64,000 nt of DNA, taken from Clarias gariepinus (lineage: Eukaryota). The stretch lies in contig NC_071110.1 of assembly GCF_024256425.1 (NCBI RefSeq), positions 2,727,451 to 2,791,450 on the forward strand, written 5' to 3'. A program made the position numbers. Of this stretch, positions 11,101 to 14,100 are shown one piece after another; positions within the stretch are counted from its first letter, which is position 1, and each line of letters opens with the position of its first letter.

Positions 11101-14100
11101 TGTTGTTTGTTATTCTGAAGTGTTTTACTGAGTTTACTATTTTTGTAGTGAATTCTACATTTCTAAGTAGAAGTTGGTAATTATTTAAGTAACTCCCAAC
11201 ACTTCAGTGTAGTTATTGATGTTCATGTATCTATGATGTTTAAAAAAACTTTTACAGAAAACATTTATTGGTTATGTTTTATTATAAATGTCTTAAATAA
11301 AGTGTTTTGTACCACAAATTACTGTTTGTCTTTTAATAATTTTTGTTAGATTTGAACAATAATAAAATGCTGTTAAACCTTAAAGGTAAATATGATAATT
11401 TAAGCACTTTAATATTAAAACAATGACCTGCTTTCACACTTTATTCTAATAATTTGAATGTTGCTTATTAAAGCATAGCACTTGTGAAACATTGTAAAAA
11501 AAAAAAAAAGAATTGTTAGAAACCATAAACACATGACTTGAAGTTGTAAAATAATGTCTACTTTTATCTGAACGGCTTCCTCAGTTCTGAGTAGTGTGGA
11601 GTCCCAGATGTGGCGTCAGTCTGTCAAAGTCACATGAGTTAAGATAAGTATCTGTGGTTTTGCAGACTATAGGGCCAAAATATTTCTATCTTCGTACCTC
11701 TGAAGGATCAATATGACATTTACTTTTAATTTTACATTTACCCAGTAAAGGGAAAAGATACATTTTCTTTTAATTTTACAGTACATTGGCATGCATGAAC
11801 ACAGCCCCATTTACACAAACATTATCTTTCAAAGTCTAGACGATTTGTTAGTTCTTGTCGTAGGAAGAGGTAGAGGTCCAATGCCATGTAAGTGTCCCCA
11901 GGAACATGAAGATTATTTTCAGCCATGATGGAGGTGCACAGTGTAATGTGTCGTTATCACCAACGATGTCGGATCGGTGGACACAGTCATTTTCATAATG
12001 GTTGACTTCATCCTCTGGAATCTGGCATAAGTAGTCCTGTGTGTTGTATAGTTCTGGTAATAAATACATGACTTCAGGGCATCCATGGGGAACTCTCTGG
12101 TTTCGTGACGGACGAATAAGGTGACTATTCCATGACTCTTTGACAGCATCCAATTCAGTCTGAAGACAGAAAGAGGAGAGTACAAGTACATTAAAACAGA
12201 AGTCTATGCAGAACAAATAAATATTAAAATATTTTTACATATTTATGTACATATGTTTTTATAACGGAGATTATTTTGTGTGAGAATGACTTACTTTTAT
12301 GATACCAAGAAAGCAGAAGATGATAAGATTTTTATCTAGGAATTCCCCATTGAAAACACCTTCATTTTTGAGGCTATGGAGTTGCTCCAGCCAAAACTCC
12401 ACACACTCTTTGCGAAGAATTCCCCACCAACTTTCAATTCTTTGGTAACTTGTGCTTCGCCCATAGATGAAACTTCTTTCACCACTTTGTAAGTCAAGAT
12501 CATTTTGACGCAAGGACCGCTGAATGTCTCGGATAGAGCTGTTCTCGGTTCCCATGTCTGCTCTTAAAGTACGAGGACAACCACCAGTTTCTCTTACTGT
12601 CTCGAGAAAATATCCACCAATAACTTTGGGATCACTGTTTGTGTTGTATGCATTGAGCCACAAAATCATCCTTGAGAATCCATCTATGGCTCCGTTTATA
12701 CATATGCCAAAAGGCTTTAACTTGTCGTATGAATCAACATGCCATACAAAATTTGGACCCTTCGCGAAGTAAGCTCTTCTGTTGAGTCTCCTCTGCCTTC
12801 TCAAGTCTCTGCCTACTGGATCCAGACTTGAAAGAATGAAACGAACATCTTCTTTTCGAACATGTAATCCCTTGTCTTTACATTTACTGTACAACCAACG
12901 GTAGCCATGCAGGGCCCCTGAGCCCTCCAGTTCTTCTTTTATGAACTGAATAACATTTTCAAGATTGTCAAAGTGTTTACGACGAAAGAATACATTCTTT
13001 TTGAGAAATCGCTTTAGTGTTTTTAGACTCACAATAATTCCATGTCTTACACTTAGAATGTGAAGAATGTCTGTATATTTAAGACCCAAAAGAAAATAAA
13101 GTTCAATTAGCTGTGATTTATCCATGCCAGAAAATATCCAGGCAAGGCAGTAACTGTTCACAAGTCAGTGAAGTACCAAAAGGAAAGAATGATTTATGGT
13201 GCAAAACAATTATTTGCAGTTGGAATACTCTGCTCCAAGGTCAGCCACCTGTTAACATGAGATAAACAAAGAAAAGGTGATTTTGTCAAATCCTTAATTA
13301 TAGATATAATTCAAGGAATATTATGCAAGTCTACACTGACCAAAGCATTACAACTGCCCATTCATTCAAGTATTTAGATGTCCTACATGTTAAATATTAA
13401 CCATACACCCTAGTGCACTTTTATACAGATGACAAGAGAATAAAGAGTTAACGATGTGATGTCCTACTCCAAATTCCTTCCTTCTACTTTTATGCTATTA
13501 TAACTACTATGCTATTCTACGTTTATACAGTATAATGTGGGAATAGAGCAATATAAAAAGGTCAATACTAGAGTCTAAAAACAAAAAAAAAGTTGTTTGT
13601 GAAACCTTCCAATTGCGATGCACTTACCTTTTCATTTACAAACACGGAGATGATGCCCTGATCCAACTCACGCTGTTGTTGCAGAAAGTCTAGAAATCCC
13701 TGATCCATTCTGTCCAAAAACGGCAAATACACACATAAAAAAGCACAAACTGTTCAGTCAGTCTGTCGGAATGCATCTTTTAGACCAATCTGTGCCTCCC
13801 TTTATACACCTACTGTATACGGGTTGACTCGCGGTGAGATTCGGGTTTTTCGCGTAAAAAGATGGAAATGTAATGACATGATGCATGAAACGTAATCATG
13901 ATGAACCGTATTTACGGCCACTGCGCGAAACCGCATAGGTGAGATCGGGGTATTAAACATAATATAAAAAATATTCTCTCCGCATATGTGACATGATATT
14001 TTTTGTAAAAAACGCAAGGAAAGACTGTGTATTGTTACATTCAGCATACATAATGTTAAAGTATAACCAAAACCGGACTAGCCCGCGGTGACGTTGGTAT

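What the first reader, a model, noticed from the sequence alone, without database searches (positions are those of the whole stretch)
11848..13161. Multi-exon rve-family integrase: HTH, DDE core and a Cys/His-rich C-terminal exon joined by a canonical intron
The core motifs WHVD, …AIDGFSR…, LRADMGTEN and …QRIESWW… match the rve catalytic triad order and spacing. The ORF ends …GIIK immediately before GTAAGT. After an intron of about 135 nt, a textbook acceptor (tctcctctttctgtcttcag) opens a 104-codon exon with spaced Cys/His residues (HGC…C…C…HC) in phase 0. A spliced integrase with an additional zinc-binding-like tail suggests either a eukaryote-adapted transposase or a domesticated derivative.
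Basis: partly seen in the sequence, partly recalled or inferred. Interest (0 to 1): 0.7.

Follow-up and report, generated by a model that had tools for sequence, protein, structure and literature searches.

The report
Decayed IS3EU transposon with HECT gene
The "spliced integrase" is real, but it is the broken transposase gene of a 10.3-kb jumping gene of the known IS3EU type, which also carries a broken ubiquitin-ligase (HECT) gene that intact relatives in fish, mussel, sea urchin and firefly keep alongside the transposase.

Summary
The ORF, the DDE motifs and the 135-nt GT..AG intron are real. The protein hits Pfam rva_4 (integrase core) at E=6e-28 across the exon junction. The same phase-0 intron sits at the same codon in related elements from fish, mussel, sea urchin and firefly.

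It is not a domesticated gene. It is the transposase of a 10,312-bp IS3EU/GingerRoot-type DNA transposon (window 4611-14922). The element has TACGG..CCGTA termini and 1.4-1.5-kb terminal inverted repeats. A second, convergent gene encodes a HECT-type E3 ubiquitin ligase. The transposase core is 61%, 53% and 48% identical to curated IS3EU-1_CGi, IS3EU-1_DR and IS3EU-1_HM. Six related full elements have perfect 6-bp target-site duplications.

This copy is dead:
- It also carries N227Y beside the catalytic Glu.
- The HECT gene has a frameshift and a stop codon.
- No target-site duplication remains.

The "Cys/His-rich tail" is largely an artefact: one cysteine is a private R-to-C change and one is read in the shifted frame.

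The integrase is an ordinary new member of a known superfamily. The HECT gene is conserved and under purifying selection, and it is the more interesting by-product.

The parts
4611..14922 (.). Whole IS3EU-type DNA transposon (10,312 bp). Its termini are TACGGAGCCCC...GGGGCTCCGTA.
   Evidence: The terminal 26-mer occurs exactly twice in the window, in inverted orientation, with 0 matches expected by chance. Inverted repeats were found, and the ends were read. The flanks are CTAATC and CTTTAT, so this copy has no intact 6-bp TSD.
4611..5995 (+). Left terminal inverted repeat (1,385 bp).
   Evidence: It is 95-100% complementary to 13400-14922. It contains an (AC)17 microsatellite at 5114-5147.
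13400..14922 (-). Right terminal inverted repeat (1,523 bp). It carries a 127-nt insertion (14005-14131) relative to the left arm.
   Evidence: Logan contig L002, a 98%-identical copy, is colinear across the inner TIR boundary, so the long TIR is a family feature.
4662..4852 (+). Subterminal array of about 9 copies of a 21-nt repeat (CGGAATAATAAACCGTGCGCG), mirrored at about 14674-14882. These are candidate transposase-binding sites (inference).
   Evidence: Tandem Repeats Finder and self-BLAST. Analogous subterminal repeat arrays occur in the Melanotaenia, Mytilus and Danio elements.
12295..13125 (-). Transposase exon 1 (277 codons): HTH-like N-terminus plus the DDE core. Catalytic codons are D131 at 12735-12733, D190 at 12558-12556 and E231 at 12435-12433. 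The private N227Y change is at 12447-12445.
12160..12294 (-). Phase-0 GT..AG intron (135 nt) with an in-frame stop.
   Evidence: The intron position is conserved in elements from fish, mussel, sea urchin and firefly.
11822..12159 (-). Transposase exon 2 (112 codons in intact copies). A 1-bp deletion between 11949 and 11948 shifts the frame. The true stop is TAA at 11824-11822.
   Evidence: Copy L001 (99.1% identical) is intact and encodes 389 aa. Copy L002 shows a frame shift at the same place as the window; its indel was not read directly.
5687..5767 (+). Second gene (HECT E3 ligase), exon 1 (27 codons, MDQGFLDFLQQQRELDQGIISVFVNEK). It lies inside the left TIR.
   Evidence: It matches the annotated N-terminal exon of the homologues P0122, P0126, P0128 and P0129.
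6262..8009 (+). HECT gene exon 2: small N-terminal helical domain, a beta-rich domain, a disordered linker and most of the HECT domain. It is pseudogenised by a frameshift between 6981 and 7025 and a TAG nonsense codon at 7931-7933.
9723..9916 (+). HECT gene exon 3: the end of the C-lobe, with the catalytic-Cys motif SHTCGCVLEVP. It follows a phase-1 intron at 8010-9722.
   Evidence: The Cys of this motif aligns with the TC of the HERC6 C-lobe motif (...ITCHNILSLP) in the PDB profile search; that this is the catalytic position is from general knowledge of HECT ligases.
13628..13708 (-). Mirror copy of HECT exon 1 with its GT donor, in the right TIR, 0.5 kb upstream of the transposase ATG.
   Evidence: Whether it is spliced onto transposase transcripts is unknown.

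Best explanation
The flagged ORF is the two-exon transposase gene of a 10.3-kb IS3EU/GingerRoot-superfamily cut-and-paste DNA transposon (window 4611-14922).

In intact relatives, the 389-aa protein has these parts:
- N-terminal HTH-like helical bundles.
- An RNase-H-fold DDE core (D131, D190, E231).
- A helical C-terminal domain.

By analogy with IS3, IS21, Mu and retroviral integrases, it should bind the terminal inverted repeats. The 21-nt subterminal repeats are the likely binding sites. It should then cut at the TA termini and join them to target DNA cut with a 6-bp stagger, which gives the 6-bp target-site duplications seen in relatives. Expression requires removal of an ancient phase-0 intron.

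The element carries a second, convergent three-exon gene. It encodes a small N-terminal helical domain, a beta-rich domain, a disordered linker and a complete HECT E3 ubiquitin-ligase domain with its catalytic Cys. Presumably this protein ubiquitinates host or element proteins to favour transposition.

The window copy is a non-autonomous fossil of a recently active family. The transposase is frameshifted and carries N227Y and C344G. The HECT gene is frameshifted and has a nonsense codon. No target-site duplication remains.

Shown: homology, fold, conserved residues, termini, TSDs in relatives, gene pairing, purifying selection, and the lesions in this copy.

Inferred: catalytic activity, the binding sites, use of the splice site in vivo, and any role for the HECT protein.
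For: Transposase identity:
- Pfam rva_4 at E=5.9e-28 across the junction. All 67 homologues hit rva_4 and 25 also hit rve.
- The DDE triad is invariant among 27 homologues from several phyla and invariant or >=90% conserved among 67.
- The AF2 model of the 68%-identical P0003 has pLDDT 90.8. Its top PDB neighbours are IstA (IS21), TnsB, MuA and the RSV, PFV and MMTV integrases.
- The core is 61% identical to curated IS3EU-1_CGi, 53% to IS3EU-1_DR and 48% to IS3EU-1_HM, using sequences from Data S3 of PMC10045372. Ginger1 and Ginger2 give only trivial local alignments.

Element ends:
- The termini are TACGG..CCGTA with 1.4-kb TIRs.
- These match the published IS3EU signature of TA..TA / TAYGG..CCRTA termini with 6-bp TSDs (PMC10045372, PMC12730594, PMC6839031).
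- Related full elements have the same termini and perfect 6-bp TSDs: Misgurnus GATTCA, Melanotaenia ACTTCC and AGAAGG, Mytilus CAATAC, Danio GAGATA, Photinus GTAAGG.

Second gene:
- A convergent HECT gene is present in every full element examined.
- Pfam HECT scores 24-27 bits against a cutoff of 23.9.
- A PDB profile search returns only HECT E3 ligases, mostly over the C-lobe, with the HTC Cys aligned to the C-lobe TC motif.
- In the AF2 model, residues 338-660 mostly have pLDDT above 90. All top-50 Foldseek hits are HECT E3s aligned over about 380 columns at E about 1e-11.

Selection and copy state:
- Ka/Ks is 0.09-0.18 for the transposase and 0.09-0.12 for the HECT gene between fish elements.
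- Copy L001 (99% identical) encodes an intact 389-aa transposase.
- The lesions of the window copy are documented.
Against: - No 6-bp TSD flanks this copy (CTAATC versus CTTTAT), so its own insertion footprint is missing.
- No transcript data were available, so use of the splice junction rests on comparative evidence and on others' gene models.
- At least one related lineage is intronless in metagenomic DNA (P0012).
- The 1.4-kb TIRs are about ten times longer than the 100-150 bp reported for GingerRoot.
- Nothing here shows what the HECT protein does.
- Ks values are saturated, so the Ka/Ks ratios are approximate.
Confidence: 0.93

Rival explanations
1. This is a domesticated (exapted) integrase-derived host gene with an added zinc-binding tail.
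For: The intron has canonical signals. NCBI pipelines annotate relatives as ordinary 'uncharacterized protein LOC...' genes. Ka/Ks is well below 1 between species.
Against: - The gene sits between 1.4-kb TIRs with transposon termini.
- Relatives are multi-copy with TSDs at unrelated loci. Examples are two Melanotaenia copies on different chromosomes and two identical firefly copies.
- This copy is frameshifted and has lost conserved residues.
- Low Ka/Ks is expected for active transposon lineages.
- The cited Cys/His residues are partly artefacts.
Confidence: 0.02
2. This is the integrase of another integrase-bearing element: an LTR retrotransposon, Ginger1, Ginger2/TDD or Polinton/Maverick.
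For: The rve-clan fold resembles retroviral integrases. A weak HTLV-2 integrase hit was found (E=0.26). Ginger2 and Polinton also make 6-bp TSDs, as stated in PMC6839031.
Against: - Within the element there is no RT, protease, capsid or polymerase gene, and no HHCC (Integrase_H2C2), SH3 or chromo domain. The genuine Gypsy pol elsewhere in the window does have these domains.
- Core identity is 48-61% to curated IS3EU but only trivial to Ginger1 and Ginger2.
- The element has TIRs, not LTRs.
Confidence: 0.02
3. The integrase and HECT genes are unrelated neighbours. The HECT gene would be a host gene or a one-off capture, and the inverted repeats a local palindromic duplication rather than transposon ends.
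For: This copy has no TSD. DNA transposons do capture host genes, for example GingerRoot (PMC6839031) and fungal IS3EU carrying TET/JBP (PMC12730594).
Against: - The same convergent pair lies between TACGG..CCGTA ends with 6-bp TSDs in five fish genera, a mussel and a firefly, and next to one TACGG end in a sea urchin.
- The HECT family shows co-divergence and Ka/Ks of about 0.1.
- All retrieved HECT homologues that carry a source name are unnamed, 'hypothetical' or 'uncharacterized' proteins from the same kinds of genomes.
Confidence: 0.03

Closest known systems
IS3EU superfamily (Repbase, 2012 onward), e.g. IS3EU-1_CGi (oyster), IS3EU-1_DR (zebrafish), IS3EU-1_HM (Hydra)
   Same: - The DDE core is 61%, 53% and 48% identical.
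- Termini are TA..TA / TAYGG..CCRTA.
- Close relatives have 6-bp TSDs and TIRs.
- There is no HHCC zinc finger upstream of the core.
   Different: - The TIRs here are 1.4-1.5 kb and contain the first exon of the second gene.
- The HECT accessory gene is not described in any paper I could search.
- The Repbase label 'IS3EU-1_CGi_2p' implies that a second protein is catalogued for that family.
- This copy is dead and lacks a TSD.
GingerRoot (Selaginella; Cerbin et al. 2019, PMC6839031), now merged with IS3EU (PMC10045372)
   Same: It has 6-bp TSDs, mostly TA..TA termini, an integrase-like DDE transposase without YPYY, HHCC or GPY motifs, element sizes of 4-13 kb, and homologues reported in fish and invertebrates.
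   Different: GingerRoot TIRs are 100-150 bp. It carries host gene fragments rather than a conserved intact second gene. No GingerRoot protein sequence was available for direct comparison.
Fungal TET/JBP-carrying IS3EU (PMC12730594)
   Same: These are multi-gene IS3EU elements with TAYGG..CCRTA ends and 6-bp TSDs. The transposase and an accessory enzyme gene lie in opposite orientation.
   Different: The accessory genes there are an alpha-kinase and a TET/JBP dioxygenase. Here the accessory gene is a HECT E3 ligase, and the hosts are animals.
Prokaryotic IS3/IS481, IS21 IstA, Mu/Tn7 transposases and retroviral integrases
   Same: They share the RNase-H-fold DDE core preceded by HTH domains. 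IstA, TnsB, MuA and the RSV and PFV integrases are the top structural neighbours.
   Different: Sequence similarity is only marginal (E=0.26 to HTLV-2 integrase). The D-to-E spacing is 41 residues here; the canonical value of 35 is from memory. This gene also has a eukaryotic intron and a distinct helical C-terminal domain.

Membership tests
IS3EU/GingerRoot DNA transposons | Transposase core similar to curated IS3EU transposases | tested here: met
   The core is 61% identical to IS3EU-1_CGi, 53% to IS3EU-1_DR, 48% to IS3EU-1_HM and 38-39% to the PGra, SK and CVi entries. Ginger1 and Ginger2 give only 24-52-column local alignments.
IS3EU/GingerRoot DNA transposons | Termini 5'-TA...TA-3' (TAYGG..CCRTA) with terminal inverted repeats | tested here: met
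   The window element starts TACGGAGCCCC at 4611 and ends GGGGCTCCGTA at 14922. The TIRs are 1.4-1.5 kb and 95-100% complementary.
IS3EU/GingerRoot DNA transposons | 6-bp target-site duplication flanking the copy | tested here: inconclusive
   The window copy is flanked by CTAATC and CTTTAT (2 of 6 positions match), so it has no TSD. Six related full elements with the same termini have perfect 6-bp TSDs. The footprint of this old copy may have been lost by a flanking deletion or by recombination; this is unexplained.
IS3EU/GingerRoot DNA transposons | No HHCC zinc finger, GPY/F or chromodomain around the core (unlike Ginger1 and retroviral integrases) | tested here: met
   The only Pfam families found were rva_4, rve, Clr5 and HTH_Tnp_Tc3_2. 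The Gypsy pol in the same window shows Integrase_H2C2, SH3 and Chromo as a positive control.
rve-clan DDE integrase core (Pfam rva_4 / rve) | HMM score above the curated cutoff, conserved D,D,E triad and RNase-H-like fold | tested here: met
   rva_4 scores 98.3 bits against a cutoff of 26. D131, D190 and E231 are invariant among 27 homologues and invariant or >=90% conserved among 67. The AF2 model has pLDDT 90.8 and integrase/transposase structural neighbours. The model was built on the 68%-identical P0003, not on the window sequence.
Domesticated transposase gene | Intact ORF, loss of TIRs, single-copy syntenic orthologues | tested here: not met
   The ORF is frameshifted, TIRs are present, and relatives are multi-copy at unrelated loci with TSDs.
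   The family motif is C332-x3-C336-x7-C344-x7-C352; three of the four are >=90% conserved. The window has Y332 and G344. The intact close relatives L001 and L003 also lack C332.
HECT E3 ubiquitin ligase (second gene) | Bilobed HECT fold with the catalytic Cys in the C-lobe | tested here: met
   All top-50 Foldseek hits are HECT domains, aligned over about 380 columns at E=1e-11. Pfam HECT scores 24-27 bits against a cutoff of 23.9 in relatives. The Cys of the HTC motif aligns with the TC of the HERC6 C-lobe motif, and the window's exon 3 keeps SHTCG. Enzymatic activity is not testable here, and the window gene is a pseudogene.

The most novel reading that the evidence does not exclude
A widespread animal clade of IS3EU transposons carries a dedicated HECT-type E3 ubiquitin ligase as a conserved accessory gene under purifying selection. 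The clade includes teleosts, a bivalve, a sea urchin and beetles. Its transposase gene has an intron fixed at one codon across these phyla. The ligase would be needed for transposition or for manipulating the host, for example by degrading a restriction or repair factor or by controlling transposase turnover. In the window's family, the TIRs have grown to 1.4 kb and duplicate the ligase gene's 5' exon (and presumably its promoter) in front of the transposase. This could put both genes under one TIR-borne control region. I found no paper describing a HECT-encoding transposon.
Probability: 0.4. Interest if true: 0.65.

Novelty: new member of a known kind. Interest (0 to 1): 0.4.

Why it matters
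For genome annotation, this locus and the many "uncharacterized protein LOC..." models like it should be masked as IS3EU transposon genes. They should not be counted as host integrase-like or HECT genes.

IS3EU is catalogued in Repbase, but a 2025 paper calls its structure and function "largely unexplored" (PMC11934779). The anatomy recovered here gives concrete handles for experiments:
- conserved TACGGAGCC termini;
- subterminal repeat arrays;
- an ancient intron;
- an obligately paired HECT ligase gene.

A transposon-encoded E3 ligase would be a new kind of host-interaction module for a DNA transposon, loosely parallel to viral E3 ligases and E3 hijackers.

Tried and rejected
- A PDB sequence search with the single protein found nothing. 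A profile search gave only a marginal HTLV-2 integrase hit. Fold search was needed.
- Pfam on the window's broken HECT fragments gave nothing. Intact relatives were needed.
- I suspected a SAM domain at the HECT protein's N-terminus from motif resemblance. Pfam gives no SAM hit, so it is reported only as a small helical domain.
- I looked for a paralogous empty site or a second copy in the window to explain the missing TSD. None was found.
- I looked for spliced-transcript contigs among Logan, JGI and ENA hits. Close relatives (P0001, P0002, P0005) retain the intron. The intronless full-length ORFs P0012 and P0022 sit on contigs without a poly(A) tail; the P0012 contigs come from metagenome records, and one begins with tandem repeats. 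There is therefore no transcript evidence either way.
- The look-up of the firefly HECT protein P0158 failed. The paired firefly locus was reached through the transposase instead.
- One firefly copy (L010) has an imperfect junction. Only L011 gives a clean TSD.
- The ORF at 10496-10864 looked to me like a LINE ORF2 tail, but it has no Pfam hit.
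Full report
OBSERVATION

After joining across the proposed intron, the protein hits Pfam PF24764 rva_4 ("Integrase core domain") at E=5.9e-28, 98.3 bits against a cutoff of 26. The match continues about 21 residues past the junction. A database search returned 619 homologues of about 385 aa from fish, molluscs, echinoderms and insects. So the ORF, the DDE-type motifs and the intron (12294-12160, 135 nt, GTAAGT..CAG, phase 0, with an in-frame stop) are real and far beyond chance.

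CORRECTIONS TO THE OBSERVATION

- Alignment with homologues puts the start at ATG 13125 (MDKSQLIELYF...), not GTG 13161.
A different frame encodes ...TLCTSIMAENNLHVPGDTYMALDLYLFLRQELTNRLDFER*, which matches the conserved C-terminus of the family.
- Logan contig L001 is 99.1% identical to the window. Comparison with it pins the lesion to a 1-bp deletion between 11949 and 11948. Spliced L001 encodes an intact 389-aa protein.
- Relative to L001, the window copy also has seven non-synonymous changes, most of them at conserved positions. N227Y lies four residues before the catalytic Glu, Q277K lies at the splice junction, and C344G removes a conserved cysteine. There are only about four synonymous changes. 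This is the pattern of neutral decay.
- The catalytic triad is D131, D190 and E231, with spacings of 59 and 41. It is invariant across 27 homologues and invariant or >=90% conserved across 67.
- The "Cys/His-rich" impression is largely artefactual. The Cys of HGC is a private R-to-C change, and the final HC is read in the shifted frame.
- The family does have a fairly conserved C-x3-C-x7-C-x7-C motif (C332, C344 and C352 are >=90% conserved). The window has lost two of the four cysteines. The intact close relatives L001 and L003 already lack C332.

WHAT IT BELONGS TO

Contig L002 matched two places in the window in opposite orientation. That led to very long inverted repeats, 4611-5995 and 13400-14922, which are 95-100% complementary. 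Both arms begin with TACGGAGCCCCCCAGGGGTCATGAGG. This 26-mer occurs exactly twice in the window, with 0 occurrences expected by chance. The flagged gene is therefore one gene of a 10,312-bp TIR-bounded unit (4611-14922).

A syntenic contig from another species (L003) showed a second large ORF convergent with the integrase. In the window this is a three-exon gene on the plus strand:
- Exon 1 is 5687-5767.
- Exon 2 is 6262-8009.
- Exon 3 is 9723-9916.

The gene is disrupted by a frameshift between 6981 and 7025 and by a TAG codon at 7931-7933.

RELATED ELEMENTS

Fetching the genomic loci of homologues gave complete elements with the same anatomy:
- Misgurnus: 6.7 kb, TIRs 337 nt, TSD GATTCA.
- Melanotaenia: 9.9 kb, TIRs 612 nt, TSD AGAAGG. 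A 3.1-kb transposase-only derivative has TSD ACTTCC.
- Mytilus galloprovincialis: 14.2 kb, TSD CAATAC.
- Danio rerio: 10.3 kb, TSD GAGATA.
- Photinus pyralis: 7.8 kb, two identical copies at different loci, TSD GTAAGG in one.
- Lytechinus: only the left end was found.

The fish, mussel and sea-urchin elements begin TACGGA(G/A)CC; the firefly element begins TACGAAAGCG. All complete elements have perfect 6-bp target-site duplications, apart from the imperfect junction of firefly copy L010. The window copy has none (CTAATC versus CTTTAT), and I could not explain this.

CLASSIFICATION

The literature defines IS3EU and GingerRoot, now treated as one lineage, by three features: an integrase/IS3-like DDE transposase without an HHCC finger, TA..TA termini (TAYGG..CCRTA in fungal families), and 6-bp TSDs (PMC10045372, PMC6839031, PMC12730594).

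I took curated Repbase core sequences from Data S3 of PMC10045372. The window's core is 61% identical to IS3EU-1_CGi, 53% to IS3EU-1_DR, 48% to IS3EU-1_HM and 38-39% to three further IS3EU families. Ginger1 and Ginger2 give only trivial local alignments.

An AF2 model of the 68%-identical P0003 (pLDDT 90.8) shows N-terminal helical bundles, an RNase-H-like core and a helical C-terminal domain. Its best PDB neighbours are IS21 IstA, TnsB, MuA and retroviral integrases. Clr5 or Tc3-type HTH hits in 20 of 67 homologues support the HTH claim.

Membership in IS3EU is thus directly tested and met, except for this copy's own TSD.

THE INTRON

An intron lies at the identical codon (after ..LIQ/K, before xELD) in every genomic copy examined. 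It is GT..AG and phase 0 wherever the boundaries were read. Lengths are 135 (window, L001), 604, 129, 264, about 690 (mussel), about 280 (zebrafish), about 2,000 (sea urchin) and about 150 (firefly). At least one lineage found in metagenome records is intronless. No transcript data could be examined, so use of the splice site rests on this comparative evidence and on the NCBI gene models.

THE SECOND GENE

- Intact relatives score just above Pfam's HECT cutoff (24-27 bits against 23.9) over the C-lobe.
- A profile search of the PDB returns only HECT E3 ligases, mostly over the C-lobe. The Cys of the ...HTCG... motif aligns with the TC of the HERC6 C-lobe motif.
- In the AF2 model of P0126, residues 338-660 mostly have pLDDT above 90. 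All top-50 Foldseek hits are HECT E3 ligases (Smurf2, NEDD4, UBR5, HUWE1, E6AP), aligned over about 380 columns at E about 1e-11.
- Upstream of the HECT domain lie a small helical domain, a beta-rich domain and a disordered linker. I suspected a SAM domain, but Pfam does not support it.
- Between fish elements, Ka/Ks is 0.09-0.12 for the HECT gene and 0.09-0.18 for the transposase. Ks is saturated, so these are approximate.
- All homologues retrieved that carry a source name are unnamed, "hypothetical" or "uncharacterized" proteins, from fish, bivalves, an annelid and beetles.
- The gene pairing, orientation and selection argue that the ligase is an integral accessory gene of this IS3EU clade and not a chance capture.
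- Four literature searches found no paper linking HECT domains with IS3EU or with any DNA transposon.
- The Repbase label "IS3EU-1_CGi_2p" suggests curators have recorded a second protein. Fungal IS3EU with alpha-kinase and TET/JBP genes show that multi-gene IS3EU elements are known (PMC12730594).

A FAMILY-SPECIFIC ODDITY

In the window's family the TIRs (1.4-1.5 kb) extend past exon 1 of the HECT gene into its first intron. A mirror copy of that exon and its GT donor therefore sits at 13708-13628, 0.5 kb upstream of the transposase ATG. L002 shares this arrangement. In Melanotaenia and Mytilus the exon lies well inside the TIR boundary. Spliced to the nearest plausible acceptors, the exon would form only a short upstream ORF. 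Whether the duplicated 5' region drives or regulates the transposase is open.

MECHANISM

Shown: homology, fold, conserved catalytic residues, termini, TSDs in relatives, gene pairing, selection, and the lesions of this copy.

Inferred from established knowledge of DDE transposases of the IS3, IS21, Mu and retroviral-integrase type:
- The HTH domains bind the TIRs. The 21-nt subterminal repeats at 4662-4852 and their mirror are the likely sites.
- DDE-catalysed cleavage occurs at the TA ends.
- Strand transfer goes into a 6-bp staggered target.

The HECT protein's role is speculative. The window copy itself cannot encode either intact protein and could move, if at all, only in trans.

VERDICT

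The integrase is an ordinary, decayed member of the known IS3EU/GingerRoot superfamily, not a domesticated gene. Its "zinc tail" does not hold up in this copy. The more interesting result is the conserved two-gene architecture with a HECT E3 ligase and an intron conserved across phyla.

Noticed in passing
window 13628-13708 (-) and 5687-5767 (+): The first coding exon of the HECT gene, with its GT donor, lies inside the TIR. It is therefore duplicated in mirror image 0.5 kb upstream of the transposase ATG. Spliced to the nearest acceptors, it would give only a short upstream ORF ending just past the transposase ATG.
   Followed up: partly
window 4605-4610 and 14923-14928: The flanks of the element (CTAATC and CTTTAT) are not a target-site duplication, although six relatives have perfect 6-bp TSDs. 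A flanking deletion or recombination between copies may be responsible. No empty-site paralogue exists in the window.
   Followed up: partly
window 10496-10864 (+): A 122-aa ORF (…RGRPKRRFMDAVREDMK…RVRWRQMIRCGDP) lies in the spacer between the two converging genes. From memory it resembles the C-terminal tail of a non-LTR retrotransposon ORF2, but it has no Pfam hit. Part of it (10634-10684) matches 38695-38744. It is probably a nested repeat fragment.
   Followed up: partly
window 2640-3284 (-), 17224-17808 (-), 37231-37865 (-), 49152-49697 (-): There are TRIM-type exons here: RING plus B-box at 2640-3284, PRY/SPRY at 17224-17808 and 49152-49697, and a second RING/B-box that appears frameshifted at 37231-37865. 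The transposon sits inside a tandem cluster of fish TRIM/fintrim-like genes. Parts of its left flank are paralogous to 36.7-39.6 kb.
   Followed up: partly
window 19132-23683 (+), 43319-46708 (-), 32303-33235 (+): These are Ty3/Gypsy-type LTR retrotransposon genes. They include a 1,129-aa pol with protease, RT, RNase H, an H2C2 integrase zinc finger, rve, SH3 and chromodomain. This is a genuine retroviral-type integrase in the same window and served as a useful contrast to the IS3EU transposase.
   Followed up: partly
window 26151-27992 (-): A 613-aa ORF is dominated by proline-rich repeats (…PPPPPSTASVAPAP… and PQPPPSVAPA…). It has no Pfam hit, and long ORFs also run on the opposite strand across the same repeat.
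   Followed up: no
window 59144-62692 (+) and 56984-57448 (-): A non-LTR retrotransposon has an ORF1 containing a GDSL-lipase/esterase-like domain (59144-60064) followed by an ORF2 with an endonuclease domain (60161-61828 and onward). A Tc1/mariner-type DDE_3 transposase fragment lies at 56984-57448.
   Followed up: partly
L005 8986-12067 (Melanotaenia boesemani): This is a 3.1-kb derivative of the 9.9-kb Melanotaenia element. It keeps the TIR ends and the intact transposase gene but lacks the HECT gene, and it has its own perfect TSD (ACTTCC). A transposase-only derivative of this element has therefore inserted at its own site; whether the deletion came before or after that insertion was not determined.
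   Followed up: partly
L013 1-60 and 293-1465 (JGI metagenome 3300034972); L014 (ENA METAG scaffold): A homologous transposase (P0012, 55% identical) is encoded without the intron on contigs from metagenome records. One contig begins with a 14-nt tandem repeat reminiscent of subterminal TIR repeats. The intron is therefore not universal in the family.
   Followed up: partly
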